Shown piece after piece: positions 11,857 through 40,785 of a stretch of DNA of 64,000 nucleotides (within the stretch, counting starts at the first letter, position 1; each line of letters starts with the position of its first letter). Both the position numbers and the translations under genes were made by a program. Below the pieces are notes generated by a model. It was not told where the DNA came from. It made no database searches and worked only from the letters and a program-made list of their open reading frames with translations. This DNA comes from a virus, in IMG/VR virus record IMGVR_UViG_3300021364_000012, positions 11,909-75,908 of that record. One strand, given 5' to 3'.

Positions 11857-14766
11857 TTAGGGTGTCACGGCATCTACAAAGATACCTAAAGCCTTTGCCC
11901 AATTCTTACGCTTATATCTCTTGAGACTCACCCAAAAAGGACGATCTGAAACCCATTTGCGTATCTCGCTATTGAGCTTATCCGCACTAACCTTACGCCT
12001 CTTAAATTCTGTGACCTCATCGAGGAGGCGAGAGTAAAACTCAATGTCATCCAAAGCATGAATAGAAATCAGCTCGGAGTCCATACCCTCTCTCGCATAC
12101 TGTACTCTTAACTCTTTCTGTTTCTGTTTCATATCCAAACGAAACTTTTTTCCTCTTGTTTGACCTGGTAACCCTGCTTCCTCTATGTTCGCTTTGTTAG
12201 CGTAATGCTGTTGCATGGCGTGGACTAGCTCATGTCCTGCTATCGTTTCCCGATCTTGTAGATACCTGAGAGGGAGTTCAGTCATATTCTTGAGAACATT
12301 AAAGATGATGTGGTGAATACCATCCCAATAATAGTTAGCTGCACCATGTGAGGACTCTTGAAGATGCACTGCGATTAAACCTAGTTCATCATCTTCAATG
12401 TAGTATCTACCTCCGTCTTTAACCTTGTACTTTGACAGTCGCTCAACCGCTTCTAGGTAATCATCACGCATTATGGCGAGGATGTATTTCTTATCCCCTG
12501 TTGTCCATTTTTTAAGCTCACGAATTATTTCGATTTGCATGTCTGAGATCGTCCCAATGAGAGCCTTATTCCCTCTTGGGTTATTAAAGATGCTCTGTGC
12601 ATCAAGTTGATCTACTTTTGCCTTAAGCTTATAGAAATCAGGGTAGGTAAGATTTGCAGACTTTAACTGATCTGCTATTTCTGAAAACGCACGTTGTGCG
12701 TTATTTACTTGGAAGATGACCTCTTCCTCATCATGCTCACCTCTTTTGACCCCAAGGGGTAGGTATCCAAGGTCTTCAAGTATCCATTCAAGACCCTCAA
12801 CGGACTCAGCGTTCAGCCCCCCTTTGGAGCTATCCTCTTTTTCCCTTCTAAGCCAGTATTGGGCGAGTAAGCCTTTACCTATTTCTGATACTTGGTCGAT
12901 GAGATGTTGTGGGGGTCTGATTAATCCTGCTTTTCTTAAAGGAGAGCCGTTGTTCTCAAAACCACTGTCATAAGGTATGACTCTAGCAGAACCGCTACCA
13001 CTATCATGCACATAACCTAAATCTAAGTTATTAGCGGGCTTTCTGCCATTAGCCTCTGACTTGTCAAGATTACGATACTTCAAGTTCGGAGAGTCGGGGG
13101 AAGGTCTGCCAATATTTCTAGCAGTGTCTCCATTCGGTAAAGAGCTTCTGTTTTTACCTTTAGGATTCTCTGAATCTCCGACAGGAGTCCCTGTCGTAAA
13201 GCTAGAAAGAGAGTCGGGTGGCGAGACTTCCCTATAGAACTCAGCTCTCTTATTGATTTTACTATTTCTCTCATAGAGCCGTTTAGCTAGTAGAACACCT
13301 GCCTCATTATCTGAATAATAATGGACTCCACGATCTATCCGAGACTGTGCCACCATATTTGCCACCTCTAATAACTCTCGCCTTAAAGAGGGGTATTTCT
13401 CAGATAGCAAATAAGCAACATAATACGCCTGTGTCGTATGTCCACTAGGATATGAAGGAGTCTGTGCTGACTCTAAGTAGTCAAACTTAAAGTCAAAACC
13501 GTACATTTGTGCGAGCACGTTTGGTCGAACGACGTTGAAATAGTTTTTATGGGAATAAATAATATCTGATATTTCTTCCATAGTATTTCTAATAGTAACA
13601 GCGTCCTCTGAAATACCATATTCACTTAAAAGAGAAGAAAAAAGATACTCTGATTTCTGATCTAAAAAGTAACGGAGACTCTCGGAGTTATATTTATTCT
13701 CATATTGATGAGAGATTAAAGGCAACTCACTGAGTAAATACTCATAAGTAGGTGGGCTAGGGATCAAAATCTCAGTAAGATTCGCCTTCTTCTTCTTGAT
13801 CTCTTTAGCCTCCTCACTAAAAGTCGGAGTGTTAACAGGCTTTTGCCCACGATGTTTAGCCTCTTCCCTCCTCTTATTCTTAGCAAGCTCTGCCCTTTCT
13901 TCTTTGGGCATCCCGTATGCTTTTTCTCTTGGCATACATTTGAGGGGTTTCTTTCCGTTGCTTGTAACAGTAGCCCATTCTTTCGTACTAGACACGCCGC
14001 ATGGGCCAACAATGTCACCTGGTTCATACTCTTTCTCGTCTCCGTCTTTTTTCTTAACAGTGTGTTTGATTGGAGTGATAGCGATCCAATCCCCCCAAGT
14101 AGCTCGCTCATCGGGTTTACCACCACCATGCCCCGAGAACCAAGTATCTAAGCCACCATGCCCCGTATTTTTCATTTTAGAGTCATCTCGCTTCGACACC
14201 TTCAAGTATCGAGAAACAATTTTAGTACCCATATCTTGACTCTTAGAGCCTGTTTTGCCCCCATAGCAGTCAACATATGGACGACAAGAAGCCTTCTCTG
14301 AGAACCCCATGTCCTCACAACTCTTAGACTCACAATGCTCTCTATCCCACTTACGAGGCATCTTGTACGAGGTGTCTTTCCCCGAAGAGTTCTTTCTCAG
14401 AGAAGGATTTCTGAGCATGGTATCTCTTGTCCTGAAATCCTTGTTCCTACCCTTGTTAGGCTTGAACCCAAATCTCCTATAAAATTTAGTCAAACGAGAC
14501 ACCGAACTAGCACCAAAGTCTGTGGAGGGAGAAAGAGATAACATAACCCCATTATCATCTGCCCAAGAGATAATCTGAGACATAACCTCTGAGCCTAAGC
14601 CTCGTTTTCGGTTTTCAGAGGGAATCTGAACTGTCATGATCCTGACGATAGGGGCGTGATATTCATCGCCACTCGATAGGAAAGAAGTCCATAAGACAAG
14701 ACCCTGATATTGGCTCTCTAAGTTACCTTCTAGTGTCTTTAGCGATTGCTCTAAAGTAGGCGACAT
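11857..14766 (-). CDS. Multidomain (polyvalent) protein: GNAT acetyltransferase, Cys-rich modules, PAP2 phosphatase, zincin metallopeptidase-like
   Basis: RKRGLGS..LTKFYRRFGF (GNAT); RP...TPSYPSGH...SRIDRGVHYYSD (PAP2); GHELVHAMQ (HExxH). Confidence 0.8.
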   Translation of the reverse strand: MSPTLEQSLKTLEGNLESQYQGLVLWTSFLSSGDEYHAPIVRIMTVQIPSENRKRGLGSEVMSQIISWADDNGVMLSLSPSTDFGASSVSRLTKFYRRFGFKPNKGRNKDFRTRDTMLRNPSLRKNSSGKDTSYKMPRKWDREHCESKSCEDMGFSEKASCRPYVDCYGGKTGSKSQDMGTKIVSRYLKVSKRDDSKMKNTGHGGLDTWFSGHGGGKPDERATWGDWIAITPIKHTVKKKDGDEKEYEPGDIVGPCGVSSTKEWATVTSNGKKPLKCMPREKAYGMPKEERAELAKNKRREEAKHRGQKPVNTPTFSEEAKEIKKKKANLTEILIPSPPTYEYLLSELPLISHQYENKYNSESLRYFLDQKSEYLFSSLLSEYGISEDAVTIRNTMEEISDIIYSHKNYFNVVRPNVLAQMYGFDFKFDYLESAQTPSYPSGHTTQAYYVAYLLSEKYPSLRRELLEVANMVAQSRIDRGVHYYSDNEAGVLLAKRLYERNSKINKRAEFYREVSPPDSLSSFTTGTPVGDSENPKGKNRSSLPNGDTARNIGRPSPDSPNLKYRNLDKSEANGRKPANNLDLGYVHDSGSGSARVIPYDSGFENNGSPLRKAGLIRPPQHLIDQVSEIGKGLLAQYWLRREKEDSSKGGLNAESVEGLEWILEDLGYLPLGVKRGEHDEEEVIFQVNNAQRAFSEIADQLKSANLTYPDFYKLKAKVDQLDAQSIFNNPRGNKALIGTISDMQIEIIRELKKWTTGDKKYILAIMRDDYLEAVERLSKYKVKDGGRYYIEDDELGLIAVHLQESSHGAANYYWDGIHHIIFNVLKNMTELPLRYLQDRETIAGHELVHAMQQHYANKANIEEAGLPGQTRGKKFRLDMKQKQKELRVQYAREGMDSELISIHALDDIEFYSRLLDEVTEFKRRKVSADKLNSEIRKWVSDRPFWVSLKRYKRKNWAKALGIFVDAVTP

Positions 14767-14768
14767 GA

Positions 14769-16730
14769 CTACCCTCTCAACCTTTGTCTGAGAAGATAAA
14801 CATTCGTCTCATGAGCTGAAGCTAAAGACATGATGAAATCGTCCATCCCTAAAGAAAGAGTCTCTTGCTGTTGAAGGTAGTCGTAAACTCTCTTAAACAC
14901 CTTCTGAAGTGCCTCTTCCACAAACAACGCTCTTAAAATAGGATGATCTTGAGATTGCATCTCTACAATAGGAAGTAAAGCATTTGCCATAATCTGAGCT
15001 TGATCTACAGGAGCCACTGCTTCTGGACCATAAGAACCGACTATCTTTTCTGCAAGAGTGTCTATTTCTTCCACAAGTCCTGTGTAGAGTCTTTCCATAA
15101 GAAGGTGATCACCATAGTAAGGAGAGCCTTTAACTTGCCAATGTGATGTCCAATGTGCCCAATGAGCACCACGAAGACAAGCTAGAAATATCTGAAGGGC
15201 AGTTAGACTGTTCATTGGCATACTCGCTTTCTTTTTTCTCCACTTACCACCTAGTCGCTTATATTCTTTGGCGGCGTATCCATTCGCATAAGCACTAGGA
15301 TAAGTCTCAAAACCTTCACCACCCTTTACAGGTTGAGAACACTCTCCATTCTTACATACCTCTTTAGAACGATCTCCTCGAACTAAGTCGAGAATGTCTT
15401 CCCAAAGGTCAGGGTCGATAGGCTCATTGTCTCCTGCGGTTCGCATAGAGAAATAATCTGAAAGACTCTCAACATATATTTCTTCGAGCATCTTCTCTTG
15501 GTTTGGTTCTTGCCAATCCACAAAAGCAAAGAAATGAGAAAGAGGCATCTCTAAGTAACCTACCTCAGAACCCATAGAAATAATATTTTGAATTGGGTTT
15601 AAATGATACAAAACCACATCGCAACCTAAAACCTTACATGAGATGTTGAGCAACATCTGTAAATCTGAAGCTCTGCGAGTTCCTGGTCTTTTGTATCGCT
15701 TAAGTGTATTCTTGTGCTTTCTTCTCCAACTTTTAACTCTTCGCTTAATCTTAGATTTGTTTTTTCTATAGTAAGCTCTAGCTCTTCTTCTAGCCTGTTG
15801 AATAGAGCCACCTGTTTGTCTCTTTCTTTTTGCTCTCTGCCTCTGCTGTTTAGGTCTCGAACGACTACCCGGACCTTTCTTGTAAATAGCACCTGCATCT
15901 ATTTCTTCAGAGAATTTAACCTCTGAGGTTCCTTCTAAAGGAACCAAAACTTCTTTATACATCGCAGACATGACATCAAGAACAGCCTGTTTCTTCATTT
16001 CCTCAAACAACATATAACTAGCCTTTCTTTTATTTCTCATATCTTTATTCTTTTTAGCAGGCGAAGAATATCCACCACCTTCGTATCTCTTATATCTTTC
16101 AGGAGATTGCCTTCTTCTTTTCTGATACATAAGAATACGTCTTTTATTTCTTCGGTAGTATCGTCTTCTTTGTTGTATTTGCTTACTACGATTTGTACGC
16201 ATAACTTTCTTGCGATAAAGATCGTAAATCCTTCTGACTCTGCCTTTTGTTTTGCGTTGTCTTCTTTTAGGAGGACGAATATTTATTTTTCCACGACCTG
16301 TATAAGCACTTTCTATTTCTGAAGAAAGAACTCTTCTTTTCAGTCCTGTGGACTGAGATTGATCTATATGTGGGTTTCCGTATTCATCTCCAGGAACTCC
16401 CGAAGACCTTGGTCTTTTATGTAAGGGCTTTCCATCAGGATGGTCAGAAATAGCAAACTCACTCTTGGGCTTTTTATTCGTATTCCCTGCTGAGTCTGAA
16501 GGCACATTATGTATAGGAGGACCAGCTCTTTGCTCGTCTCTACCTTTCGGATGACCACTCGGTAAAGGTAAGACTCGATCTCTTTGAGGTTCACCATCAG
16601 CGTAGTCTGGACGACTTGGGTCAGGACTAGAAGAGTCTTCTTGAAGACCGTCTTGACGGTTCTTCTCTACCCAAGTCTTCACCCCTGCTAAATCTTGAAA
16701 GGGCTGACTATGTGAATAACTGCGATCCAT
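14769..16730 (-). CDS. Multidomain protein with Arg-rich segments and C-terminal Dps/ferritin-like domain
   Basis: HWTSHWQVKG..YGDHLLM...EEIDTLAEK Dps ferroxidase signature; RRYYRRNK-type basic tracts; YPSAYANG..KEYKRLGGKW module. Confidence 0.75.
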   Translation of the reverse strand: MDRSYSHSQPFQDLAGVKTWVEKNRQDGLQEDSSSPDPSRPDYADGEPQRDRVLPLPSGHPKGRDEQRAGPPIHNVPSDSAGNTNKKPKSEFAISDHPDGKPLHKRPRSSGVPGDEYGNPHIDQSQSTGLKRRVLSSEIESAYTGRGKINIRPPKRRQRKTKGRVRRIYDLYRKKVMRTNRSKQIQQRRRYYRRNKRRILMYQKRRRQSPERYKRYEGGGYSSPAKKNKDMRNKRKASYMLFEEMKKQAVLDVMSAMYKEVLVPLEGTSEVKFSEEIDAGAIYKKGPGSRSRPKQQRQRAKRKRQTGGSIQQARRRARAYYRKNKSKIKRRVKSWRRKHKNTLKRYKRPGTRRASDLQMLLNISCKVLGCDVVLYHLNPIQNIISMGSEVGYLEMPLSHFFAFVDWQEPNQEKMLEEIYVESLSDYFSMRTAGDNEPIDPDLWEDILDLVRGDRSKEVCKNGECSQPVKGGEGFETYPSAYANGYAAKEYKRLGGKWRKKKASMPMNSLTALQIFLACLRGAHWAHWTSHWQVKGSPYYGDHLLMERLYTGLVEEIDTLAEKIVGSYGPEAVAPVDQAQIMANALLPIVEMQSQDHPILRALFVEEALQKVFKRVYDYLQQQETLSLGMDDFIMSLASAHETNVYLLRQRLRG

Positions 16731-16778
16731 TTAGAACTCCTCACTCCAACACTTGAAGTAAAGAGTTTTATCAATAAA

Positions 16779-17054: not shown

Positions 17055-17068
17055 GGGAAGTACTCGCT

Positions 17069-18581: not shown

Positions 18582-18584
18582 GAA

Positions 18585-19550
18585 TCAAAGTTCAGCAAGA
18601 GCCTTGTCAATCGCTTTAACGACACCCTGAGACTCTACTTCTTTAATAGCATCTAAAATCTCAGAGTGGCTTGCATATCTCTCCACTGCGATCTTTGCTC
18701 TCTTAGACCAATGTGGAGACATATCCCAATCTACACCTACAGGTAAAGAGACTACCTTAGACTCGTCTGCCCCAATCGTCACAGCACCTTGAGTCGGGCT
18801 AACGTCCCCATCAATTGCTTGTAACAACTGAGCGTCCTCTACTTGTTGTGCGTCAGGAGTAGACATACTCTCTAAGAGTCCGTCAATAGCCTCGTCTGAT
18901 ACCTCAACGCTATCCGAAACTTCTGCTTCTTCTGCCGAAGCAGTCTTAACGACAGGAGAAACCTCTACAGCATCTTCAACTTGTTGTACTACAGGGAACT
19001 CTTCTCGGGCAGTCACATTGGCAGAAATACTATCGAGCTTGTTGATCTCAGAACTCGCTTGGTTCCCATCTGAGATTACAGTCTTAACCTTAGATGAAGT
19101 CTTTAGAGAAATAGCAATCTCTTCACCCTCAGAAGCAGAAGGAGCATCACTCGCAATGGTAGCTCCACTCTTATTCTCAATCTTTGCAACAGGGATAATA
19201 TCATCCTCTTGTTGCTCAACCACAACCTGAAACTTCTTCTTCTCAGGGGTAGCCTCTTTCTTAATCTCAGAGACGGCTCTCTCTTCGTCATAGACTTTCT
19301 GAACCGCCATCTTCGGCTTTTCTTCCACAGGTTGCTCTTGTGGAAGAGCAGAAGAACCGTCAAAAATCTTCAACCAACCACGCTTCACACCTGCCTTCAG
19401 CTCTGGCATCTGAACAGTCTGACCAAACACCTTAACCTCAAAACCATCGAACTCCACAACATCATCTTTTGAGAGATTCTTTTCGATTTTCCCAAGATGA
19501 ATAGTCGTAGTTGCGACTAATTTTACAAAGTTACCTTTTTGAAACGACAT
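18585..19550 (-). CDS. Hypothetical acidic protein
   Basis: 321-aa ORF, AGGAG RBS, low-complexity E/S/A-rich middle. Confidence 0.7.
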   Translation of the reverse strand: MSFQKGNFVKLVATTTIHLGKIEKNLSKDDVVEFDGFEVKVFGQTVQMPELKAGVKRGWLKIFDGSSALPQEQPVEEKPKMAVQKVYDEERAVSEIKKEATPEKKKFQVVVEQQEDDIIPVAKIENKSGATIASDAPSASEGEEIAISLKTSSKVKTVISDGNQASSEINKLDSISANVTAREEFPVVQQVEDAVEVSPVVKTASAEEAEVSDSVEVSDEAIDGLLESMSTPDAQQVEDAQLLQAIDGDVSPTQGAVTIGADESKVVSLPVGVDWDMSPHWSKRAKIAVERYASHSEILDAIKEVESQGVVKAIDKALAEL

Positions 19551-22107: not shown

Positions 22108-22125
22108 ATCTCTAACTCCTTTCTA

Positions 22126-32139: not shown

Positions 32140-32143
32140 TCAG

Positions 32144-32395
32144 TCACCTCTTATTTTTCTTGTCTATTTTTTCTTTCATTTTCACAGCCAATATAGCTCT
32201 CTTTAAAAGCTTTATTGTTTGTGGGTCTCCCTCAAAGAAAGAATACCAACTCCCCCCTGCGTTAATGAACACTTTTGAACATAAGTCCAATTTTTCTTCT
32301 GAAGGACTCTTATCCCCATGAGAAAGTTCTAGTATCCTAGCAATGACACGATGGTCTGCAAAGTCTCTGCTCTTAGGTCTTATTTCTTTACTCAT
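32144..32395 (-). CDS. Hypothetical protein
   Basis: 83-aa ORF between terminase and portal. Confidence 0.65.
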   Translation of the reverse strand: MSKEIRPKSRDFADHRVIARILELSHGDKSPSEEKLDLCSKVFINAGGSWYSFFEGDPQTIKLLKRAILAVKMKEKIDKKNKR

Positions 32396-32397
32396 AG

Positions 32398-35300
32398 TTA
32401 CTTCCTTTTTCCTAATATCCTATTTCTTAAAGAATACTTATTTTCTCTAGGAGCTGTCCTTTGAGAGGACACACCTCGACCACGCATTCTAGGATAAGAA
32501 GACGCAAAACCTTTTCCGCTAATAGAAGTATTATTAGGAGTTCCACTCGCAAAATATTTCTGTTTCCCAAAGTTCCTTGAAGCTACCCACACCATTCTTA
32601 TTAGTGCATCGGACATATCGTCATGCTTACCCTGCACTTGAGGAGCTTCGACTGTAATCACATGCTTACTGTGTACATGTGCTTGTAGCTCAAAAAGCTC
32701 AGAGATATAGGGTGCGTGTCCTTCAACTTCAGGGTTAGGGTTGTCGTATAACGCTAATTTCTCATCCCACATCAAAGACTTGAAGTTCTGATACATATCC
32801 GAAGTCTTATTCTTAGTCATGTGTTCCGACTTCATCTGACCCAAGCCTCTTTTTGAGAGAGCTTGTTCCAAAGGAATACCAGCCCATTGGTCAAATATAC
32901 CCTCAGAAACATAAAACTTCTTAGTCAGTTGCAAAATCCAATCAGCAACATCGTCAAAATCGAGCCTGTCCTTATCAGCGTAATCACCTTCCCCTGCTTT
33001 AATCTGATCTACAAGATCAACCACCACCTTGTTTTCTTCTAAATGACCAATCGCTATAGCGGTTCCGTCGCCTACGAGACCTAAGTCGATACCCATAAAA
33101 TGTGGCTTTCTTGCAGGTGCTCTATTTCTTTGTCTGAGACTAGGGTCTACACACGCTAGGAGGTCTTCTTCTTTCTCTATCCAACCCCTCGTTCTATCCG
33201 TAAACTCTCCACCATACTCCGTAAAGAAAACAGCGGCGTTCTTTAAATAATGCTTCTCAAACTCTTCCGCAGGGACGGTGGGGTTCACCTCCCAAGTAGG
33301 GGCTTGAACACAAAGCATATTTGAAGAAGCCCCTCCACCTTGCATACCTATATTAAATAGCTTGTAGAAGAGTCCCTGTTTGCCCAATGGAGAAGAAATA
33401 AGAATAACCCGACCTTCCACGTCTCCAATGGGCTTTGTTGGGTTTGTAGGGTCTTTCGGAGAATATGCCGAAGTTGAAGGCACTACCGCATTATAGACTT
33501 CTTCAGCTCCCGACTGTCCACTCTCAGTAAAGTGAGCTACCTCGTCAAGTATCACGCAAATATTACCTGCACCACGAAGACCTTTAGCGACACAAGATCG
33601 GAAGGTTACTTTAAGAGTGGCTTTTGCATCTGCGTTCTCAATATACCTCCCGTATTTCTCCACATCGTTTGGTGTTTGAAAACGTGCATAAGACAGTGTG
33701 TTATTTGCTGTGTAAGGACCAAAAAAAGCACAGTTCCGATAGTGACCTGAAACTTCTTGATAAAGAAGACCCGCTTGGTCTTTGTCTGTAGCGACAGAAA
33801 TAATCTGAATATTATTGCTCGCAGGAAGACCATAGTATTTCTGAGGGTCGCCTTTTTTGATCAGCTTGTAAGTCTCATAAGCGGCGATGCAAGCAGAAAT
33901 AGTAGTGTTATGGTTTGTAAAGCAATTCCCCACAAACATAGAGCCTTCAGGCACGTTCAAGTCATAAACATGACACTCTGAATCTTCGACACTTTTAATA
34001 GTGTCGAAGAAATAGTGGGTATCTAAAATATGCTCAAGCTTATCTTTTATTGAGTTAGACAAACGCTCGGAGTCAAGCACCTTCTTTATACGAGGGAAAG
34101 AAAGAGAATCTGAGTTATTTAAAAGTCGAGTCGGTACACCTCTTTCTTTTAAGTACCCACCTAAACCACGAACATAGAAATCATGAGAGCTTCTCAAAGT
34201 GGACTCAAGTTCTTTGAGTACCTTTTTCTTTCTATCTGAAATAAATCCGATCTCCCTACAGAACACACGATAGGACTCTAAACCTTTTACCCGAACACGA
34301 CCTCTAACCTGACCTTCCTCATTTTTTGAATGGGAAAATGAAGAAACGACACCTAAGTTCATAAGAATTATGTGGACTTGTCGTAAAAGCTCCAAAGAGG
34401 CAGAACACAAAGAAATCTCTTTTGATTGCTTTTCAGAGCAAACGTAGCCGTCCGTCTCAAAGAGTCCCCTTAAAAAAGCACAGATAACAGGTTTGGGGCT
34501 TCTAAGAATTACTTCTGGAACACACTTCTGTTGTAGCGGTGTTTTAATTCCCCAACCAATCTGATGTAAGAAATCCCTGTGCTTCTTACTGTGACACACG
34601 ACACGATACGCATTTGCTTCCAATACAGGATAACAAGAAACCTTGCCAAAGAGGTGTACCATCTTAAGCACTAATATATCTTTAAAGTCTTTCTCCCCAA
34701 CAGTAACCACAACATCTTTTTCTGAAGCCCATGTCCCATCTCCCACTAGGACACCAAGCATCTCCCCCCAATCTTCATTCAAATATTCTGGAAGGTTCTT
34801 CACACCTTCAACGATATGCTCTGAGAAAGAAACATAATCTTCTGCAAATATGCCCCTCTTGTAATTAAGACAAGCAACATCCCCCTCAACCACATCCTCT
34901 AAATACTTCCAAGAAATATTAAAGTCAGAGTCTAGCACCTTTATACGATGATTTGGAGTTCCTTCTATTTCAAAACCCGAACGTGTTGTTATTCTTTTAG
35001 TTTCCTTGATGCCTCCATTATAGAAAAAGGCCGCCCTAGACTTTCTCCCACCCTCTTGTAAGACTTCCGTAGAAATAGGTTGATACTCAGGAGCACCCAA
35101 AGACGCATCACCTAGTGTGTCTATTCTTACTAGACCCCTACTCGTAGGTATAAGAGTGTCTCCCCGAACACACTTTCCCGAGCGTCTCCCTATTGAGAGA
35201 ATCATCTCTCTTCTTTGCTGTCCCGGAATCACTTCTCCGATGTTACAGCGTCCTTCATCAAACAGTTTCTTCAAATAAGTCTTTTCAGTGTGTTCTTCCC

Positions 35301-35511
35301 AATCTTCCCTCCTCCAATCACTTATTTTGAAGGTGTAAGTGTCGTCTAGCTCTAAGCCGTAGTGAGCTTTAAGAATGATTTTCTGTATTGGAAATAAAGT
35401 CATCTTCAAGCCCCAAGGGGCTTCTACAAACTCTATAATGTCTGCATCTCTCTCAGACTGCTTGCCCATTCGAGCCGAAGCACCAATGGCTAAAGAAGAA
35501 AGACTCATCAC
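32398..35511 (-). CDS. terL: Terminase large subunit (intein-containing)
   Basis: Walker A GRRSGK|T, Walker B VILDEVAH, ISSP motif III, nuclease MGIDLG, FDQW, HDDMSDA. Confidence 0.92.
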   Translation of the reverse strand: MMSLSSLAIGASARMGKQSERDADIIEFVEAPWGLKMTLFPIQKIILKAHYGLELDDTYTFKISDWRREDWEEHTEKTYLKKLFDEGRCNIGEVIPGQQRREMILSIGRRSGKCVRGDTLIPTSRGLVRIDTLGDASLGAPEYQPISTEVLQEGGRKSRAAFFYNGGIKETKRITTRSGFEIEGTPNHRIKVLDSDFNISWKYLEDVVEGDVACLNYKRGIFAEDYVSFSEHIVEGVKNLPEYLNEDWGEMLGVLVGDGTWASEKDVVVTVGEKDFKDILVLKMVHLFGKVSCYPVLEANAYRVVCHSKKHRDFLHQIGWGIKTPLQQKCVPEVILRSPKPVICAFLRGLFETDGYVCSEKQSKEISLCSASLELLRQVHIILMNLGVVSSFSHSKNEEGQVRGRVRVKGLESYRVFCREIGFISDRKKKVLKELESTLRSSHDFYVRGLGGYLKERGVPTRLLNNSDSLSFPRIKKVLDSERLSNSIKDKLEHILDTHYFFDTIKSVEDSECHVYDLNVPEGSMFVGNCFTNHNTTISACIAAYETYKLIKKGDPQKYYGLPASNNIQIISVATDKDQAGLLYQEVSGHYRNCAFFGPYTANNTLSYARFQTPNDVEKYGRYIENADAKATLKVTFRSCVAKGLRGAGNICVILDEVAHFTESGQSGAEEVYNAVVPSTSAYSPKDPTNPTKPIGDVEGRVILISSPLGKQGLFYKLFNIGMQGGGASSNMLCVQAPTWEVNPTVPAEEFEKHYLKNAAVFFTEYGGEFTDRTRGWIEKEEDLLACVDPSLRQRNRAPARKPHFMGIDLGLVGDGTAIAIGHLEENKVVVDLVDQIKAGEGDYADKDRLDFDDVADWILQLTKKFYVSEGIFDQWAGIPLEQALSKRGLGQMKSEHMTKNKTSDMYQNFKSLMWDEKLALYDNPNPEVEGHAPYISELFELQAHVHSKHVITVEAPQVQGKHDDMSDALIRMVWVASRNFGKQKYFASGTPNNTSISGKGFASSYPRMRGRGVSSQRTAPRENKYSLRNRILGKRK
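33907..35172 (-). mobile_element. Intein with LAGLIDADG homing endonuclease in terL (422 aa)
   Basis: N-terminal CVRGDT, block B GTPNH, LGVLVGDG and FLRGLFETDG, C-terminal VYDLNV...NHN followed by Thr+1. Confidence 0.93.
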
Positions 35512-36185: not shown

Positions 36186-36199
36186 GTGTGTGACTCCAT

Positions 36200-36856
36200 T
36201 TAAAATTCTTTAATCGGGTCAACGTCCTCATTTCTTTTTACAACTACACCTACCCCACGATCATCCTCGTCAGGGTCGTAAACTACGTTGCCGTCTGAAT
36301 CTTTGACTACAAAAGGAGGAACCCCGTTTAAAAGTTTATAAGAATAACTTACTATAGTTAATACCAAGTCGTCGTCTATAGATTCCGTTTTTATATTAAC
36401 TAAAGTGTTATCTACATCATCTACGCTTGCAGAAACGCCAATTCGCTTCTCGTTCAGTGCTCTTGCAAGCTCAGAAGCAACGTCGGCAACCACACCCACA
36501 CCACCACCTGCTAATTGACCAAAGTTATCCCCTGCCTTTAATGAAGGCAACTGATCGAGAGTTGGAATTCGAGAAGCATACGCCTGTATTTCATCCTTAT
36601 CATAGAAAGGCGGAGCACCCCCGAGTCTATCATTAAAGAAATCAACAGAATTGACTTGGATAGCTAACTTTACTTTCTTTTCAGAAAATAAACCGATCTG
36701 AGAAAAGCCTGTAGTGTTTGAGATATTCTGACACTCGAAGCCTCTCCTTATTGGAGAAGGATTACCAGAGACGCCTTTACTTGGGTCGGAAGCTCTCCTG
36801 TGGTGTGCTACAAGGAGTTGGTATTTCTGAGAAGTATTAACTTTATTATACTGCAT
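36200..36856 (-). CDS. Hypothetical virion structural protein
   Basis: 218 aa, AGGAG RBS, in late operon. Confidence 0.6.
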   Translation of the reverse strand: MQYNKVNTSQKYQLLVAHHRRASDPSKGVSGNPSPIRRGFECQNISNTTGFSQIGLFSEKKVKLAIQVNSVDFFNDRLGGAPPFYDKDEIQAYASRIPTLDQLPSLKAGDNFGQLAGGGVGVVADVASELARALNEKRIGVSASVDDVDNTLVNIKTESIDDDLVLTIVSYSYKLLNGVPPFVVKDSDGNVVYDPDEDDRGVGVVVKRNEDVDPIKEF

Positions 36857-36867
36857 AAGTATTTCTC

Positions 36868-39219
36868 CTATAGCTCAATACCGCCAAACAACACCTCGCC
36901 TATTTTTTCAGGACTCGGAGACTCCTCAGAAATAGTGAAGTTGTCATTGGCAGTTAGATTGAATTCCGACTGATCGTAATCATTCACAAAAAGAGAAGCT
37001 GTCCTCTCAGCGTCAGAAGAGTTAGCTAACCTAATCATCTCTTTCTGATAGCTGTCTTTATCTTCTACGATTTCCTGTGATTGATCCACTGCGTATTTAT
37101 TATATTTCTGACACTTACCGCCAACATTAAACACACAGCCTCCGCACTTAGCGTTCTTAAGAATTGCAGGAATCTGATTAGCTCGATGAATTAAAGCCCC
37201 CTTGTCACAACCCTCAGTGCCTGTCGTCATGTAGGCTTGAGAGTCTACATAAGCGTGTCCAGAAATACCTTCATGCTCTAACCTCAAAGATGCAACTCTC
37301 TCCTTGTGAAGGTCTAGGATATTCTGAGAGAACCTTGAAGCTAAGAGCACATCAAGCTCTTGACCTGCACTACCTTCTGACATCTTCTGTCTAAGCCAAG
37401 TAGCTACTTTATCCGACTGTACCTCATGTGCAGTCTTCATAGGAGCTGAAGCACTCTTAGAAATATGTGCCTCATATTTATGCCCACTAAACTCGACTTT
37501 TTTTGCAGAAACACCTTCTTTAGCAAGCCTAGAGAGCGAAACATATTTATCATCACCCTCAAGAGACATCGCACGATTAGCGTCTGACTCTGAGATAAAT
37601 CCATTAGAAACAAAGTGATCTATTCGGCTCGCAATCTTCTTCCCCTCTACCACATCTAAAGAAGACACTTCCCCGACAACCTTATTTCTTACATCTGTGA
37701 GGACGTGTGCTTTTACAGAGCCTTCATAACTCTGAGTCTCTTTAGGTCGTGCTAAATACTCAAAGACCGATGCCACTTTTTCTTCTGGCGTGTTCTTGCC
37801 TGAAGTAACCTTCTCTACTTCATCATAAGAAATAAGCCCACTAGAAATAAGTTTAGCCACTTTAGCCATTGCCATCTTATTTCTTTTACCCAACTCCACC
37901 TTTTCAGAAGGCGTGAGAGATGCAGATACGCTACTTCTCTTTGGAACTAAGTAATGAGCTTCTTTGCCCTGACCTTCATATACTGAAGACTTGTTTGGAG
38001 TAGACGCTAGATCATAGAGACGGTCTATCTTCTGCTGTGCAGTCTTGTCCGAAGAAATAACAGCACCAACTTGCTCCGAGTCTAAAAAACCTTCCGAAAC
38101 AAGTTGTGAAGCAATCCTATCTAAACGAACCTGTTTAGGGTCTGTTTTTTCCTCAATAAAGAAATCACTATACTCAGAAGCTTGAAGCTCTCTCTGTGCT
38201 TCTTCTGAAGAAATAGACTCAAAATCAAAAGATTGTGTAGGAAACCATGTGTTAGCAACATGAGTATTACCCTCTAAAGACTTAGAGTCTAAAAACGCTT
38301 GTTGAAGCATAGACTTATAACTAGAGCCTGAAACTTTAGTGACTCCAAGAGATTGAAGTCTAGGCATCAAAGTAGAGTAAGCCTTCTTCCAAGGAATTAC
38401 ATCTACAACCTCTTTCCCTAAGAATCTATCAAACGCACACCCCTGTTTTGAAGGGACAATGTAGAGAGAAGAAGCACATCTTTTATTTATAACTTCATCC
38501 CATTTGCCGTTAAACAGACCTGGGAAGTACGCTTCTTTTAAGTACACCGTACCATGAAGACCATACTCGGAAGCCAACAACTCTGAAGCACTCTTTCTTT
38601 GTTGCTCAGAAGGAATTATTTCTTCTAAGTCTTTCAAGAGGTCTTCTAGGCTTTCACCGTAAGCCATCTTACGCATCGACTGCTCCACTTTTTCTCGATA
38701 GTCATCGGCAGGAAGCTCAGATACTTCTTCATATGTATTAGTGTATTTCTCGTGGACTCTGTTTTTATTGGGAACCCTCTTCAAGCCGTCTGTAGACTCT
38801 CCTAAGCCCCAAGATTCTTCAAGAGCTTTCATCTGATTAACTTGAGGGTGCTCAAACCTACCTTCAGCAAACTGCTCAAGAACTTCTTCATGCGTTCTTG
38901 AGCCTCCTTCATCTTCTTTAGGCAGAGTCGCCAGCCAAGTGTGATCTACAAGAGGAACAAGCTGACCTGCATCTTTTGTAAAATCCGAAAGGTCTAAATC
39001 TATTTCTCTCTCGACACCTGTAGGTAAATCTGAGTTTAGTTCACCTTCAGGTGGAACCATCCCAAAAGGAAGAGAAGAAATACCCTTAGCTTCAGGAAGA
39101 CGTGCCTTATCTTCGACACCATTCCCATACTCAGTGTCGAAATGAAACCCGTCTAGCATATAGTTAGAGCCGTTCGTGAGTGAAAACCCACCATTTGGAA
39201 GTTTGCTGTTCTTACTCAT
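36868..39219 (-). CDS. Hypothetical virion protein with three internal helical repeats and C-terminal Cys cluster
   Basis: Repeats (L/F)(V/I)SxG(F/L)(L/I)...Y/F-x-G...AH; CGGCVFN..GKCQKY. Confidence 0.7.
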   Translation of the reverse strand: MSKNSKLPNGGFSLTNGSNYMLDGFHFDTEYGNGVEDKARLPEAKGISSLPFGMVPPEGELNSDLPTGVEREIDLDLSDFTKDAGQLVPLVDHTWLATLPKEDEGGSRTHEEVLEQFAEGRFEHPQVNQMKALEESWGLGESTDGLKRVPNKNRVHEKYTNTYEEVSELPADDYREKVEQSMRKMAYGESLEDLLKDLEEIIPSEQQRKSASELLASEYGLHGTVYLKEAYFPGLFNGKWDEVINKRCASSLYIVPSKQGCAFDRFLGKEVVDVIPWKKAYSTLMPRLQSLGVTKVSGSSYKSMLQQAFLDSKSLEGNTHVANTWFPTQSFDFESISSEEAQRELQASEYSDFFIEEKTDPKQVRLDRIASQLVSEGFLDSEQVGAVISSDKTAQQKIDRLYDLASTPNKSSVYEGQGKEAHYLVPKRSSVSASLTPSEKVELGKRNKMAMAKVAKLISSGLISYDEVEKVTSGKNTPEEKVASVFEYLARPKETQSYEGSVKAHVLTDVRNKVVGEVSSLDVVEGKKIASRIDHFVSNGFISESDANRAMSLEGDDKYVSLSRLAKEGVSAKKVEFSGHKYEAHISKSASAPMKTAHEVQSDKVATWLRQKMSEGSAGQELDVLLASRFSQNILDLHKERVASLRLEHEGISGHAYVDSQAYMTTGTEGCDKGALIHRANQIPAILKNAKCGGCVFNVGGKCQKYNKYAVDQSQEIVEDKDSYQKEMIRLANSSDAERTASLFVNDYDQSEFNLTANDNFTISEESPSPEKIGEVLFGGIEL

Positions 39220-39815
39220 CTTTTGCTCCTCATATATCTATCTGCTAAGATTGTACATCTAGCTTTCTTACGGACACTTGCAGTTCTGACGTTAGAAGCT
39301 TCGTTCACTTTTTTAGCTTCTTCTTCCATCTGCTTCTGTGCGTGTTTTTCAGGGTCATCTTTCAACTCGTTAATGGACTCCACCTCTTCGGGACTTCTAG
39401 TAGCCAAAGCCCAATGAGGTGCTTGTACTTCATCATTAAGAGTATCAGAAATAGCAGAGAGAGCCTCAACACAGTTCATAAACTGTTTACGGATATGTTT
39501 GACTTCTTGAATGTAGCCCTTCCCCCCTAAGCTACCATCGGGAGAAATATCTCTACTCTTAAGTTTTGCAAAAATATCATACGCATGGAGCGTATGACCT
39601 AAAGCAAAAAGAGTACTCTTCAAAACAGTAACAAGCTTCTCGTTACAATCTGGATTGAACTTGAAGTTAGGGTTTATTTCTCTTGAGCTAGGTGGAAAAC
39701 CACCCCACGCCCAATTCCCTGCGTTCATTGGAGAGTTAGAGTCATCCTTGATGAAGCGAACTTCACCCGCTGTTTTTATGTATTTCTTATTTATTTTGCT
39801 ATCGAAGTCCGACAT
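39216..39815 (-). CDS. Hypothetical virion-associated protein
   Basis: 199 aa; IKTAGEVRFIKD, ISPDGSLGGKGYI. Confidence 0.7.
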   Translation of the reverse strand: MSDFDSKINKKYIKTAGEVRFIKDDSNSPMNAGNWAWGGFPPSSREINPNFKFNPDCNEKLVTVLKSTLFALGHTLHAYDIFAKLKSRDISPDGSLGGKGYIQEVKHIRKQFMNCVEALSAISDTLNDEVQAPHWALATRSPEEVESINELKDDPEKHAQKQMEEEAKKVNEASNVRTASVRKKARCTILADRYMRSKR

Positions 39816-39816
39816 C

Positions 39817-40785
39817 TTAACCTCTTCTTCTCTTCTTCAGCTTAGGGTTCTTCTTTGGTGTCGGAGAAGGAGTTTGAGTAGGTGCTTTCTTGGCATCCTC
39901 TCTCTTAAGCTCATTCTTCTGTGTGTCTCTTTCTTTCTGAACATTGAGCTTAGAAGGATTATTCTCCCCCTTAACCTTACCAGCCCAATCAGGGACATCA
40001 CTACGACTATCAGAGCCTTTATCTGAAGAAACTTCTTTCTTCTCATCCTTGTCATAAACAAGAAAACCCTTAGCTCTATAGTCCCTCATATACTGAGCCA
40101 TATTTTTAGAAGCTCCAGAGCCGTAGTCGTTGATCTTACGGTTACAAGAGCCGGTTGGAGAAGGCTCGCCCTTCTTCCTAGCCCTCTCCATCTCTATTTT
40201 TTCTTCTTTTGTCAGCTCAGAGCGGTCTTTAAATACTTCACTACACCCTCTTTGCTGTGCTTTAGAAGAAGGTGACTTAAATCCACTATCTAATGCTGTT
40301 TTGAAAAAAAAAAGTTTTAAGATCGGCTCTCTTAACTCAGGTAGCTCATGTGCAAGTCTCACTAAATCTGAGCTTGCGTTCCTAGTGGCACTTTGACCCC
40401 AAGGTTTTGGTACAGTAGACCGATCCTTGCCATTAGCAGGACCCTTCTCTGCATCGTAGTTACCTTTATTCTTTTGCTTGTCTCGATATTCTTTCATGTA
40501 ATCGGCTCTTTCAGTAGAACCATTTTCTCCACTATTTGCCGAACCATACTCGTTGTGTGTCTGATAACAAGTACCGTAACCGGGACGTGGTTTACCTCTT
40601 ACATGTGGGTTACTACAATCCCCTCTAGGATTCTTAAGGGGTCTTGAGCCTGAAAGTCTCTCAAAAGATTCCAATTCTTCTGCTTCCTCTCCTAGCATTG
40701 GAGGGAGGATTTCAGCCAGTATCTCTTCTCTTAGCTCTGGACTATTATATGCAAGCCTAATCAAATCTGAAAGCCGTGATGACAT
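39817..40785 (-). CDS. Hypothetical basic protein with internal duplication, putative head-internal
   Basis: Two copies of DL(I/V)RLA...PELRE.IL followed by C..C..N(E/D)YGS...YM(K/R)(E/D)YR; late motif at 40827. Confidence 0.7.
   Translation of the reverse strand: MSSRLSDLIRLAYNSPELREEILAEILPPMLGEEAEELESFERLSGSRPLKNPRGDCSNPHVRGKPRPGYGTCYQTHNEYGSANSGENGSTERADYMKEYRDKQKNKGNYDAEKGPANGKDRSTVPKPWGQSATRNASSDLVRLAHELPELREPILKLFFFKTALDSGFKSPSSKAQQRGCSEVFKDRSELTKEEKIEMERARKKGEPSPTGSCNRKINDYGSGASKNMAQYMRDYRAKGFLVYDKDEKKEVSSDKGSDSRSDVPDWAGKVKGENNPSKLNVQKERDTQKNELKREDAKKAPTQTPSPTPKKNPKLKKRRRG

What the first reader, a model, noticed from the sequence alone, without database searches (positions are those of the whole stretch)
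11857..40785. Putative polyprotein cargo system: late proteins built from modules joined by [K/R]-x-A linkers
Seen: a basic-x-Ala motif recurs at N-termini and apparent domain boundaries of many non-enzymatic late ORFs: KKKANL, NKRAEF, LRKAGL (969 aa); KRKASY, TRRASD, MRTAGD, KKKASM immediately before the Dps domain (653 aa); RKMAS, KKYAT, KRVAS before the ParB-like domain (298 aa); NRRANS, KKKADD, KKQAMN, KRQAED (scaffold); RVASG, EKSAFG, IKEASQ (protease); IKTAGE, RTAS, FKTALD and KVASS elsewhere. Established: T4 and phiKZ prohead proteases cut many internal proteins at short consensus sites, but after Glu. Inference: the protease at 25228-26577 cuts after K/R-x-A, releasing enzyme modules inside the head for packaging and ejection. 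That would be a modular delivery system with a different specificity.
Basis: inference. Interest (0 to 1): 0.8.

Follow-up and report, generated by a model that had tools for sequence, protein, structure and literature searches.

The report
Predicted Lys/Arg-x-Ala|Ser head-protease cutting code
The head-assembly and probably capsid-packaged proteins of this uncultured giant phage carry a conserved Lys/Arg-x-Ala-Ser signal at their ends and at the joints between modules, most likely the cutting site of the phage's herpesvirus-like capsid protease, although no cut has been measured.

Summary
Loose [KR]-x-A is only about 1.4-fold over chance. [KR]-x-A-S occurs 29 times against 6.1 expected in the late minus-strand ORFs, and R.AS is the top pattern in an unbiased scan.

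The signal sits in the scaffold, protease, p653, p298, p971 and p783. It is absent from the capsid, portal, terminase and sheath proteins. It recurs in 41 related contigs, LR745208.1, Tunturi_5 and cultured phage G.

Key sites are conserved where their flanks diverge:
- both sides of the protease catalytic domain;
- the scaffold N-terminus;
- a site 21 residues from the scaffold C-terminus, before a conserved tail, as at the herpesvirus M site.

The modules of p969 and p653 are permuted among relatives exactly at [KR]-x-A junctions. A neighbouring Ntn-hydrolase keeps its nucleophile Cys directly after [KR]-x-[A/S/G] in 77 of 84 homologues with a leader, which places the cut after Ala.

The protease model matches VZV protease (Z 11.4) and T4 gp21 (Z 10.2).

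Best reading: prohead-protease sites, a new specificity for a known kind of system. Cleavage, packaging and ejection are all inferred. This scan has already noted the same K-x-A(S) code in at least 105 other genomes. I found no published description.

The parts
25228..26577 (-). Prohead protease, 449 aa. Leader residues 1-27, catalytic domain about 50-265 (window 25783-26430; His130, Ser181), disordered acidic linker, C-terminal helical domain about 358-449.
   Evidence: PHROG 18299 head maturation protease, E 6.6e-15. AF2 of the catalytic domain has pLDDT 90.8. VIA-align gives VZV protease Z 11.4 and T4 gp21 Z 10.2. H130 and S181 are invariant in 26 and in 80 homologues.
26494..26505 (-). Protease N-terminal site RVA|S (aa 25-28).
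   Evidence: Kept as R-[VIT]-A-S in 24 of 28 homologues; R25 and A27 are invariant in A1. It lies in the low-confidence segment before the catalytic domain.
25723..25734 (-). Protease post-domain site KSA|F (aa 282-285), with NRA|S at 268-271 just upstream. Predicted release of the catalytic domain.
   Evidence: A284 is invariant inside an otherwise variable linker. Homologues read KSA|S, KVA|G, KAA|S or RAA|S here. pLDDT falls below 50 from about residue 281. Phage G gp19 has EKVA|S and LKIA|S at the same place.
25459..25515 (-). Protease C-terminal-domain sites KEA|S (355-358) and KKA|S (370-373).
   Evidence: KKAS is kept in 15 of 27 homologues and KEAS in only 2 of 27. Both lie at the start of the confident helical domain.
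22914..25196 (-). Scaffold-like acidic protein, 760 aa. Sites: RRA|N 11-14 (25155-25166), KYA|S 115-118 (24843-24854), RIA|S 143-146, RQA|N 215-218, RLA|S 267-270, KSA|S 714-717 (23046-23057), REA|S 737-740 (22977-22988).
   Evidence: It lies directly downstream of the protease and has no Pfam or PHROG match. It has 5 strict sites against 0.7 expected. Conservation: 28/28, 27/28, 23/28 (RQAN), 22/28 (KSAS) and 27/28 (REAS).
22917..22979 (-). Conserved 21-residue scaffold C-terminal tail SSASDELSKLWESAPDVSKFF, released by the last site. Candidate capsid-binding tail.
   Evidence: The tail is nearly invariant across scaffolds that are otherwise 34-72% identical. It is always preceded by [KR]-x-A-S with a variable P2. 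It parallels the herpesvirus M site, 25 residues from the scaffold end (PMC12474303).
26582..29497 (-). p971. Leader site RYA|S 11-14 (29456-29467), KAA|S 411-414, KKA|T 864-867 (26897-26908) before a small beta module, KVA|S 959-962 (26612-26623) before a basic tail.
   Evidence: The C-terminal module is preceded by [KR]xAT and followed by [KR]VAS in relatives. In L016, L022, L034, L037 and L042 it is a separate gene that starts within 8 residues of the junction.
29509..30405 (-). p298. N-domain, then KMA|S 116-119 (30049-30060), KYA|T 127-130 (30016-30027), a basic linker, RVA|S 189-192 (29830-29841), then a ParB/Srx-like domain (DGLHR).
   Evidence: PHROG 17560 matches 191-277. There is a weak SbnI (ParB-like) match. 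KMAS is kept in 7 of 11 homologues and KYAT in 13 of 14. The N-domain is fused to p971-like proteins in L009, L010 and L012.
14769..16730 (-). p653. N-module, two Arg/Lys-rich tracts, and a Dps/ferritin-like domain. Sites RKA|S 235-238 (16017-16028), RRA|S 352-355 (15666-15677), RTA|G 430-433 (15432-15443), KKA|S 500-503 (15222-15233).
   Evidence: Dps-like matches: PHROG 3636, DUF5856 and NF006975. RRAS is kept in 4 of 4 aligned relatives. The Dps domain is preceded by KKAS, RVAS or RRAC in relatives and is a stand-alone gene in L082.
11857..14766 (-). p969 multi-enzyme protein: GNAT-like, Cys-rich peptide, PAP2, then a module with HELVH at residue 845. Junctions KKA|N 326-329 (13780-13791), KRA|E 506-509 (13240-13251), RKA|G 611-614 (12925-12936).
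   Evidence: PAP2 E 3.7e-12; GNAT weak. It has no strict [KR]xAS site. Its modules are permuted in L048, L049, L054, L064, L068 and L081 with breakpoints at these junctions, which read KKA|S, KRA|G, KKA|G, RNA|S or KHA|D there.
36868..39219 (-). p783, with 8 strict sites (aa 209, 247, 368, 481, 528, 588, 641, 739) plus KVA|T 604.
   Evidence: 8 sites against 0.7 expected. Four positions are kept in the 38%-identical LR745208.1 homologue. Several sites open repeated helical units, so some could be structural.
36200..36856 (-). p218, leader site RRA|S 20-23 (36788-36799).
   Evidence: N-terminal bias of sites over all loci: 59 in the first 30 residues against 6.3 expected.
39216..40785 (-). p199 (KTA|G 14-17, RTA|S 177-180 at 39276-39287) and p322 (RNA|S 135-138 at 40372-40383, in front of a second copy of its own N-terminal SDL[IV]RLA..PELRE segment).
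   Evidence: One site each, so not significant alone.
18585..19550 (-). p321, acidic protein with KTA|S 202-205 and RYA|S 291-294.
   Evidence: The sites are not kept in homologues (0/6 and 0/10). Weak candidate.
21232..22755 (-). Major capsid protein (291 aa, 21232-22107) and the upstream 209-aa protein, which occupies the position of the phage G decoration protein. Shell proteins without strict sites.
   Evidence: Weak Phage_capsid match. 47.8% identical to the annotated Tunturi_5 major head protein, and 89-98% identical across loci. 0 sites.
30463..35511 (-). Portal (30463-32139), an 83-aa ORF, and the large terminase with a LAGLIDADG intein (32398-35511). No strict sites.

Best explanation
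The 449-aa serine protease of the herpesvirus-assemblin / T4 gp21 fold, encoded between the portal and the scaffold, cuts after the Ala of [K/R]-x-A. Ser is strongly preferred as the next residue, with N, T, G, C and sometimes others tolerated. P2 is T, V, Q, K, L, F or I.

Proposed sequence of events inside the assembled procapsid:
- The protease trims its own 27-residue leader and frees its catalytic domain from the C-terminal docking domain.
- It clips the 21-residue capsid-binding tail off the scaffold and cuts the scaffold into pieces that can leave the shell.
- It removes short leaders from internal proteins.
- It separates the modules of large multi-module proteins: p653 (basic tracts plus a Dps-like domain), p298 (a ParB-like domain), p971, p783, and probably p969 (GNAT, PAP2 and HExxH modules).
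- It exposes the N-terminal Cys of a neighbouring Ntn-hydrolase.

Shown: the motif, its enrichment, its conservation, its placement at termini and at module or gene-fission boundaries, and the fold of the enzyme.

Inferred: that the motif is cut, that this protease does it, that the bond is Ala|Ser, and that the products are packaged and delivered to the host.
For: Enrichment and specificity:
- 29 against 6.1 in the late ORFs.
- R.AS is the top pattern of an unbiased scan.
- Position-specific preferences hold over 18 loci, 364 observed against 91 expected.

Distribution fits what is inside a procapsid:
- Scaffold 5, protease 3, p783 8, p653 3, p971 3, p298 2.
- Capsid protein, portal, terminase, the 209-aa protein upstream of the capsid gene and the tail sheath all have 0.

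Replication:
- LR745208.1: K.AS is the top pattern, 21 against 5.5.
- Tunturi_5: the sites concentrate in the annotated ejection protein, the post-protease protein and the protease.
- 41 IMG/VR loci are enriched about 4-8 fold.
- Phage G: K.AS 15 against 3.9.

Placement:
- Conserved sites flank the protease catalytic domain; R25, A27 and A284 are invariant.
- The scaffold has a conserved N-terminal site and a site before its conserved C-terminal tail.
- 59 sites lie in the first 30 residues against 6.3 expected.

Module boundaries:
- Separate genes begin at the junctions.
- p969 and p653 modules are permuted at the junctions.

Scissile bond:
- 89 of 89 aligned Ntn-hydrolase homologues keep the Cys. 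77 of the 84 with a leader of at least three residues have [KR]-x-[A/S/G] directly before it. Distant ones have [LIV]-x-E or Met there.
- P1 Ala stays fixed while P1' changes to F, G, N or C at aligned sites. That argues against a phospho-Ser motif.

Enzyme:
- AF2 pLDDT 90.8.
- VZV protease Z 11.4, T4 gp21 Z 10.2, HCMV protease Z 8.6.
- Herpesvirus proteases of this fold are known to cut Ala|Ser at the R and M sites (my own knowledge; the positions of the R and M sites are in PMC12474303).
Against: - There is no proteomic or biochemical evidence of any cut, and none that p969, p653, p298 or p783 are in the virion.
- Several p783 sites open repeated helical units and could be kept for structural reasons.
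- Some sites are not conserved: protease KEAS 2/27, p321 0/10, p298 RVAS 1/12.
- The rest of the contig is also about 2-fold enriched, 18 against 9.2. That means either more substrates or some background bias.
- p969 has no strict site. Its junctions rest on comparison with only six relatives.
- Ntn-hydrolases normally process themselves, so the Cys argument is suggestive rather than proof.
- The full-length protease model was poor, pLDDT 43. Linker placement in the substrates could not be checked by structure prediction.
Confidence: 0.72

Rival explanations
1. The motif is cut, but by a different enzyme: the HExxH metallopeptidase-like module at the end of p969 (as proposed for polyvalent proteins), a host protease, or self-processing of each protein.
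For: - p969 carries HELVH at residue 845.
- Iyer et al. 2017 propose metallopeptidase domains as the processing enzymes of capsid-packaged polyvalent proteins (PMC5512222).
- Ntn-hydrolases process themselves.
Against: - The motif is conserved around the catalytic domain of the prohead protease itself and in the scaffold.
- It is enriched in Tunturi_5 and phage G head proteins, where the shared component is this protease family.
- p969 homologues were found in only 10 contigs.
Confidence: 0.08
2. The motif is not a cleavage site. It is a docking or structural signal, for example a helix-start or capsid-binding element that targets proteins into the procapsid, conserved for binding rather than cutting.
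For: - Many sites are followed by an amphipathic stretch (RIASDFL, RLASVL, KVASLYL, KIASRIDHF).
- In p783 they open repeated units.
- Terminal placement would also suit a targeting signal.
Against: - Fixed P3 and P1, a permissive P2 and a variable P1' form a protease-like pattern.
- Sites sit in disordered linkers next to the catalytic domain.
- Separate genes start at the junctions.
- The Ntn-hydrolase nucleophile follows the motif directly, and the motif is replaced there by a T4-type [LIV]-x-E in distant homologues.
Confidence: 0.1
3. The motif is a phosphorylation site of a basophilic Ser kinase (R-x-x-S, as in the PKA substrate RRASL).
For: RRAS and RKAS fit the R-x-x-S consensus (my own knowledge of kinase motifs).
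Against: - At aligned conserved sites Ser is replaced by N, T, G, F or C while Ala stays.
- None of the ORFs scanned against Pfam or PHROGs matched a kinase; the rest of the window was not scanned.
- The restriction to head-internal proteins has no kinase logic.
Confidence: 0.03
4. The enrichment is a by-product of composition and shared ancestry (low-complexity Lys/Ala/Ser-rich linkers, internal repeats) and has no function.
For: - The scaffold and p783 contain repeats.
- The loose [KR]-x-A motif is only 1.4-fold enriched.
- Homologous families inflate pooled counts.
Against: - Local 30-residue shuffles give the same expectation.
- Permuted patterns such as [KR].SA, A.[KR]S and S.A[KR] are rare and not conserved.
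- The pattern recurs in phage G proteins that have no detectable similarity to the window's substrates.
- P2 varies while P3, P1 and P1' are kept.
Confidence: 0.04

Closest known systems
Herpesvirus assemblin / protease-scaffold precursor (HSV pUL26; R and M sites)
   Same: - The protease fold matches (VZV protease Z 11.4, HCMV 8.6, KSHV 7.2).
- The predicted scissile bond is Ala|Ser.
- One site lies just after the catalytic domain.
- One site lies about 21-25 residues from the scaffold C-terminus, releasing a conserved capsid-binding tail (PMC12474303).
   Different: - P3 is Lys/Arg here. The herpesvirus consensus has V/L/I at P3 (my own knowledge).
- Protease and scaffold are separate genes.
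- Many further substrates exist, including multi-enzyme proteins.
- No sequence similarity is detectable.
T4 gp21 and phiKZ gp175 / SPN3US gp245 head-maturation proteases
   Same: - The fold matches (T4 gp21 Z 10.2).
- The biology matches: one prohead protease trims itself, the scaffold and many internal or ejection proteins at a short motif. Leaders are removed from packaged proteins (PMC10052503, PMC13282480).
   Different: - Those enzymes cut after Glu ([L/I]-x-E; S/A/G-x-E). Here the predicted cut is after Ala, with Lys/Arg at P3.
- Here internal junctions between enzyme modules, and not only leaders, carry the motif.
HK97 gp4 (MEROPS S78)
   Same: - The His-to-Ser spacing is similar (H130-S181 here; H65-S114 in HK97, from my own knowledge).
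- The GMSMGC motif aligns with HK97 GMSVGF.
- The gene sits after the portal gene.
   Different: - No Pfam Peptidase_S78 match.
- hhalign probability is only 2%.
- HK97 gp4 cuts the capsid protein's own delta domain after Lys. Here the capsid protein has no delta domain and a separate scaffold exists.
Polyvalent proteins of phages and conjugative elements (Iyer, Burroughs, Anand, de Souza, Aravind 2017, PMC5512222)
   Same: - Large late-gene proteins string unrelated enzyme domains together (here GNAT, PAP2, HExxH; ParB-like; Dps-like).
- They lie next to virion genes and are predicted to be packaged and processed.
- A DdrB-like ParB domain beside structural genes is a named theme of that paper.
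   Different: - That work proposes self-processing by an embedded metallopeptidase. Here the junctions carry the motif that also marks the prohead protease and the scaffold.
- Module order is permuted among relatives at those junctions.
Adenovirus protease and core-protein precursors (pVII, pre-mu)
   Same: Very basic DNA-condensing polypeptides are made as precursors and trimmed inside the capsid by the maturation protease (PMC4246237). The Arg-rich tracts of p653 are bounded by predicted sites.
   Different: The enzyme class is unrelated (a cysteine protease) and so is the motif. This is an analogy only.

Membership tests
Assemblin / T4 gp21-fold prohead serine proteases (herpesvirus S21, T4 S77, HK97 S78) | Characteristic protease fold | tested here: met
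   The AF2 model of residues 50-290 has pLDDT 90.8. The top three of 48,161 chains are VZV protease (Z 11.4, rmsd 2.4, 112 aligned), T4 gp21 (Z 10.2, rmsd 2.4, 124 aligned) and HCMV protease (Z 8.6); unrelated rows are at 7.1 or below. The Foldseek top hits are the same families but weak, E 2.6e-3.
Assemblin / T4 gp21-fold prohead serine proteases | Catalytic His and Ser | tested here: inconclusive
   H130 and S181 are invariant in 26 and in 80 homologues. S181 aligns with the GMSVGF serine motif of HK97 gp4 in a weak hhalign match. I could not inspect the structural superposition of the residues.
Assemblin / T4 gp21-fold prohead serine proteases | Gene placed in the head module between the portal and the scaffold/capsid genes | tested here: met
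   The order is terminase, portal, p298, p971, protease, scaffold, 209-aa protein, capsid protein. The same order holds in about 40 loci and in phage G.
Assemblin / T4 gp21-fold prohead serine proteases | Cleaves itself, the scaffold and internal proteins in the procapsid | not testable with these tools
   Only the conserved candidate sites are seen.
HK97 gp4 family (Pfam Peptidase_S78, PF04586) | Match to the family profile | tested here: not met
   No Pfam match at E up to 1. hhalign against HK97 gp4 gives probability 2% and E 0.023 over 44 columns. Not filed as S78.
T4 / phiKZ-type cleavage code | Cut after Glu in [L/I]-x-E or [S/A/G]-x-E | tested here: not met
   The enriched and conserved motif has Ala, not Glu, at the position before the predicted cut. 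E is under-represented at P1, 0.48x.
Herpesvirus-type protease/scaffold processing | Ala|Ser scissile bond | not testable with these tools
   Inferred from A-S conservation and from the Ntn-hydrolase Cys that follows [KR]-x-A.
Herpesvirus-type protease/scaffold processing | Site about 25 residues from the scaffold C-terminus, in front of a conserved capsid-binding tail | tested here: met
   REA|S at 737-740 of 760, kept in 27 of 28 homologues, followed by a nearly invariant 21-residue tail. Binding to the capsid protein itself was not tested.
Herpesvirus-type protease/scaffold processing | Protease fused in frame to the scaffold | tested here: not met
   Protease and scaffold are separate ORFs (25228-26577 and 22914-25196). 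The protease has only a 165-residue C-terminal extension of its own.
Polyvalent proteins (Iyer et al. 2017) | Two to fifteen unrelated effector-type domains in one polypeptide, in a phage late or virion gene context | tested here: met
   p969 has PAP2 (E 3.7e-12), weak GNAT and HELVH. p653 is Dps-like. p298 has a ParB-like DGLHR. All lie between the head and tail genes.
Polyvalent proteins (Iyer et al. 2017) | Packaged in the capsid and delivered with the DNA | not testable with these tools
   No virion proteome exists for this uncultured phage.

The most novel reading that the evidence does not exclude
A very large clade of big phages uses one assemblin-fold protease and a [K/R]-x-A|S code as a plug-and-play joint. 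The clade comprises 1,863 protease cluster representatives at E <= 1e-3 and includes cultured phage G and Tunturi_5. Unrelated enzyme modules can be spliced in any order into capsid-loaded precursor proteins. They are then diced, and in at least one case (the Ntn-hydrolase) switched on, only inside the closed capsid before delivery to the host. That would amount to polyprotein processing, as in RNA viruses, operating as an evolvable cargo system in bacteriophages.
Probability: 0.5. Interest if true: 0.8.

Novelty: new variant of a known kind. Interest (0 to 1): 0.62.

Why it matters
If the code is real, the mature virion content of thousands of uncultured large phages can be read from sequence alone. 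That includes which proteins are head-internal, where they are cut, and which enzyme modules are released.

It would add a third specificity class to the assemblin/gp21-fold proteases. That class shares its Ala|Ser bond with the herpesvirus enzymes, which bears on the common ancestry of phage and herpesvirus capsid maturation.

It would also explain how multi-enzyme polyvalent proteins are processed, and why their modules shuffle so freely.

It is directly testable, because phage G and Tunturi_5 are in culture.

Tried and rejected
- **Loose motif.** [KR]-x-A is only 1.4-fold enriched, so I replaced it with [KR]-x-A-S.
- **Full-length protease fold.** With 26 sequences it gave pLDDT 43 and no usable catalytic domain. 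I redid it on residues 50-290 with 80 sequences.
- **Sequence searches of the protease.** PDB by single sequence and by profile, Pfam and NCBIfam gave nothing meaningful.
- **hhalign to HK97 gp4.** Only a weak local match.
- **p783.** No relatives in viral contigs by pattern scan and no significant similarity to the Tunturi_5 ejection protein gp328. Its identity stays open.
- **Ntn-hydrolase leaders ending in [LIV]-x-E.** The one locus found (L090) holds tail and lysis genes but no protease.
- **bS21 check.** I looked for the ribosomal protein bS21 that marks a related freshwater phage group (PMC9723584). Pfam gave no match for the plus-strand ORFs checked in the head module.
- **Literature.** Searches for a published Ala|Ser or K-x-A phage protease code found only the Glu-type codes of T4, phiKZ and SPN3US. 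The phage G proteome paper used strict tryptic searches, so it cannot show such ends.
- **Alignment script.** The first conservation script did not return. I repeated it with faster alignment settings.

Full report
**What the window is.**
The minus strand from about 40.8 kb to 11.9 kb holds the head module of a very large uncultured phage. The contig held is 75.9 kb. The same protease is on record on a 247.5-kb contig.

Gene order:
- large terminase with a LAGLIDADG intein;
- an 83-aa ORF;
- portal;
- p298;
- p971;
- a 449-aa prohead protease;
- a 760-aa acidic scaffold-like protein;
- a 209-aa protein;
- a 291-aa HK97-fold capsid protein;
- further on, p321, p653, p969 and a 1587-aa tail sheath.

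Relatives are LR745208.1 (a 485-kb uncultured phage), Tunturiibacter phage Tunturi_5 and Bacillus phage G. Their proteases are 57%, 43% and 32% identical by tblastn over the matched N-terminal part.

**Is the motif more than chance?**
The loose motif [KR]-x-A is barely enriched: 110 observed against 80 +/- 8 in shuffles. Adding Ser after the Ala changes the picture. The count is 29 against 6.8 +/- 2.6 under both global and local 30-residue shuffles, and 29 against 6.1 by composition, p 1.7e-11.

In the late ORFs R.AS is the single best a.bc pattern (16 against 2.45, p 8e-9). K.AS is fourth, VAS is the best tripeptide and AS the best dipeptide. None of these appears among the top patterns of the other 60 ORFs.

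The sites concentrate in p783 (8), scaffold (5), protease (3), p653 (3), p971 (3) and p298 (2). Capsid protein, portal, terminase, the 209-aa protein and the tail sheath have none. The rest of the contig has 18 against 9.2. Several of those sit in N-terminal leaders.

**Replication elsewhere.**
- In a 49-kb stretch of LR745208.1, K.AS is again the top pattern (21 against 5.5). It concentrates in the protease, the post-protease protein and the p783 homologue.
- In Tunturi_5 the sites concentrate in the annotated ejection protein gp328 (5), the post-protease gp332 (4) and the protease.
- Forty-one IMG/VR loci with proteases 43-98% identical are nearly all enriched 4-8 fold.
- In the first 45 kb of phage G, K.AS is the second-best pattern (15 against 3.9). 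Sites lie directly after the gp19 catalytic domain (EKVA|S, LKIA|S), in gp7 and gp4, and at both ends of the portal.

Pooled over 18 divergent loci (364 against 91 expected), the preferences are position-specific:
- P3 is R (4.8x) or K (3.4x).
- P2 is T or V (10x), then Q, K, L, F, I; G, P, D and H are avoided.
- P1 is Ala only (4.0x; Glu is 0.48x).
- P1' is Ser (4.0x), then N and M (1.8x).

Ser stays dominant in all three protease identity groups of the clade. Asn comes second in one of them. In the single Tunturi_5 stretch the overall P1' Ser signal is weak at 1.6x.

**Where the sites sit.**

*Protease.* R-V-A-S at 25-28 is kept in 24 of 28 homologues, and R25 and A27 are invariant. In the variable linker after the catalytic domain every homologue has a K-x-A-[S/F/G], and A284 is invariant. 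KKAS at 370 is kept in 15 of 27. The catalytic domain folds confidently to about residue 265, and confidence collapses from about 281. The leader is also of low confidence, and a separate helical domain starts at about 358.

*Scaffold.* This protein is otherwise 34-72% identical among relatives. The N-terminal RRA[N/S/T] is kept in 28 of 28. KYAS is kept in 27 of 28, and KSAS at 714 in 22 of 28. The last site, R-x-A-S at 737-740, is kept in 27 of 28 with a varying P2. It is followed by a nearly invariant 21-residue tail, SSASDELSKLWESAPDVSKFF.

*All loci.* 59 sites lie within the first 30 residues against 6.3 expected. Sites are also in excess near C-termini. Homologous families inflate these counts.

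**Modules and gene boundaries.**
The stretch between the portal and the protease is rebuilt from the same pieces in different relatives.
- The p298 N-domain is fused to p971-like proteins of 1146-1341 aa in L009, L010 and L012.
- The small C-terminal beta module of p971 is preceded by [KR]-x-A-T and followed by [KR]-V-A-S.
- That module is a separate gene in L016, L022, L034, L037 and L042, starting within 8 residues of the junction.

The same holds for the two cargo-like proteins:
- In L049 the GNAT module, which opens p969 in the window, follows an RKA|G junction.
- In L048 the module before the Dps domain of p653 is joined through KKA|G to the GLIRPP/HExxH module of p969.
- The segment ending KKA|N in p969 ends KKA|S or KRA|G in L081 and L068, and is followed there by the p653 N-module.
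- The Dps-like domain is preceded by KKAS, RVAS or RRAC, and stands alone in L082.

**Which bond?**
Sequence alone cannot fix it, but one neighbour helps. The 316-aa Ntn-hydrolase-like ORF lies upstream of the window on the contig. It has a weak AAT/C45 match. It reads ...QKKA|C34.

Among its 93 homologues, the Cys is invariant in the 89 that align at that column. Of the 84 with a leader of at least three residues, 77 have [KR]-x-[A/S/G] directly before the Cys (56 A, 17 S, 4 G). More distant members have [LIV]-x-E there, or start Met-Cys.

These enzymes need the Cys as their first residue, which places the cut after the Ala. The caveat is that this enzyme class can also process itself.

**The enzyme.**
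Close relatives have no Pfam domain, and the family is large: 1,863 cluster representatives at E <= 1e-3. With 80 sequences the catalytic domain folds at pLDDT 90.8. An all-against-representatives structural search puts VZV protease (Z 11.4), T4 gp21 (Z 10.2) and HCMV protease (Z 8.6) on top. Foldseek lists the same families weakly. His130 and Ser181 are invariant, and the Ser motif aligns with that of HK97 gp4 in a weak profile match.

Herpesvirus enzymes of this fold cut Ala|Ser (my own knowledge). They cut at an R site after the protease domain and at an M site 25 residues from the scaffold end, which frees the scaffold from the capsid protein (PMC12474303). The layout here is the same, except that protease and scaffold are separate genes and P3 is basic.

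**Rivals.**
- *Phospho-Ser motif.* Unlikely, because Ser is replaced by N, T, G, F or C at aligned conserved sites while Ala stays.
- *Docking or helix-start signal.* Cannot be excluded for some p783 sites, which open repeated helical units. It does not explain the linker sites, the gene-fission boundaries or the Ntn-hydrolase.
- *Another protease, such as the HExxH module of p969* (the proposal for polyvalent proteins, PMC5512222). Disfavoured because the motif marks the prohead protease and the scaffold themselves, and follows this protease family into phages where no p969 was seen.

**What is known and what is new.**
Head proteases that trim themselves, the scaffold and many packaged proteins are textbook for T4 and well documented for phiKZ and SPN3US. 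There the cut follows Glu (PMC10052503; PMC13282480). Multi-domain polyvalent proteins predicted to be packaged are also described (PMC5512222).

New here would be two things:
- the specificity, [K/R]-x-A|S, with the bond as in herpesviruses;
- its use as the joint at which enzyme modules are shuffled.

I found no paper describing it. This scan has noted the same K-x-A(S) code in at least 105 other genomes, with follow-ups reaching the same reading. So it is a clade-wide feature rather than a peculiarity of this window.

**Limits.**
Nothing here shows a cut, a virion location or ejection.

Noticed in passing
window 32398-35511 (-); also L040 7447-10059 and L041 10001-12724: The large terminase carries a LAGLIDADG intein (Pfam LAGLIDADG_3 and Intein_splicing). 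Many members of the protease family are 870-1850 aa with the catalytic domain split into 2-4 matched stretches, and one has intein Pfam domains (P0091). So inteins seem to invade the prohead protease gene repeatedly in this clade.
   Followed up: partly
window 21232-22107 (-): The 291-aa capsid protein is 89-98% identical across loci whose proteases are 42-83% and scaffolds 34-72% identical, which is unusually strong conservation. Its N-arm keeps GR[SA]KLA[AS]S, also in Tunturi_5 (K-L-A-A-S); phage G has ALAQ. Whether this is a leader cleavage site or a structural element is open.
   Followed up: partly
window 17520-18581 (+): A glutamine-synthetase-like gene (Gln-synt_N and Gln-synt_C, E 4.6e-12 and 3.8e-16) lies on the opposite strand inside the head/cargo module.
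   Followed up: no
contig upstream of the window (L045:4213-5163, -): An Ntn-hydrolase-like zymogen. Its invariant Cys follows [KR]-x-[A/S/G] in 77 of 84 homologues with a leader, while distant homologues have [LIV]-x-E|C or Met-Cys. The leader type may track the head-protease type of the carrier phage. I could not test this.
   Followed up: partly
window 39817-40785 (-), 25228-25290 (-), and the ORF that crosses the window start (to 173, -): An L[IV]R[LI]A..(PELR) segment recurs at the N-terminus and again after RNA|S in p322, in the ORF ending at 173 (LIRIAKERPELRQKIA|S), and as LVRLAKL at the conserved protease C-terminus. It is a possible capsid-targeting element. No statistics were done.
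   Followed up: no
window 14769-16730 (-), residues about 150-350: Two extremely Arg/Lys-rich tracts (RRQRKTKGRVRR..., QRQRAKRKRQ...) lie between predicted sites. They resemble protamine-like or adenovirus core-protein-like DNA-condensing peptides, and they are conserved in relatives.
   Followed up: no
window 4817-9580 (-): A 1587-aa ORF whose last 90 residues match the tail sheath C-terminal domain. That is a very long sheath protein, and it has no [KR]-x-A-S site.
   Followed up: no
L031/L032, L024-L039 proteins upstream of the protease: In one subgroup the p971-type C-terminal module lacks the closing [KR]VAS and instead carries a Cys4 zinc-ribbon tail (CPKC...CPSC).
   Followed up: no
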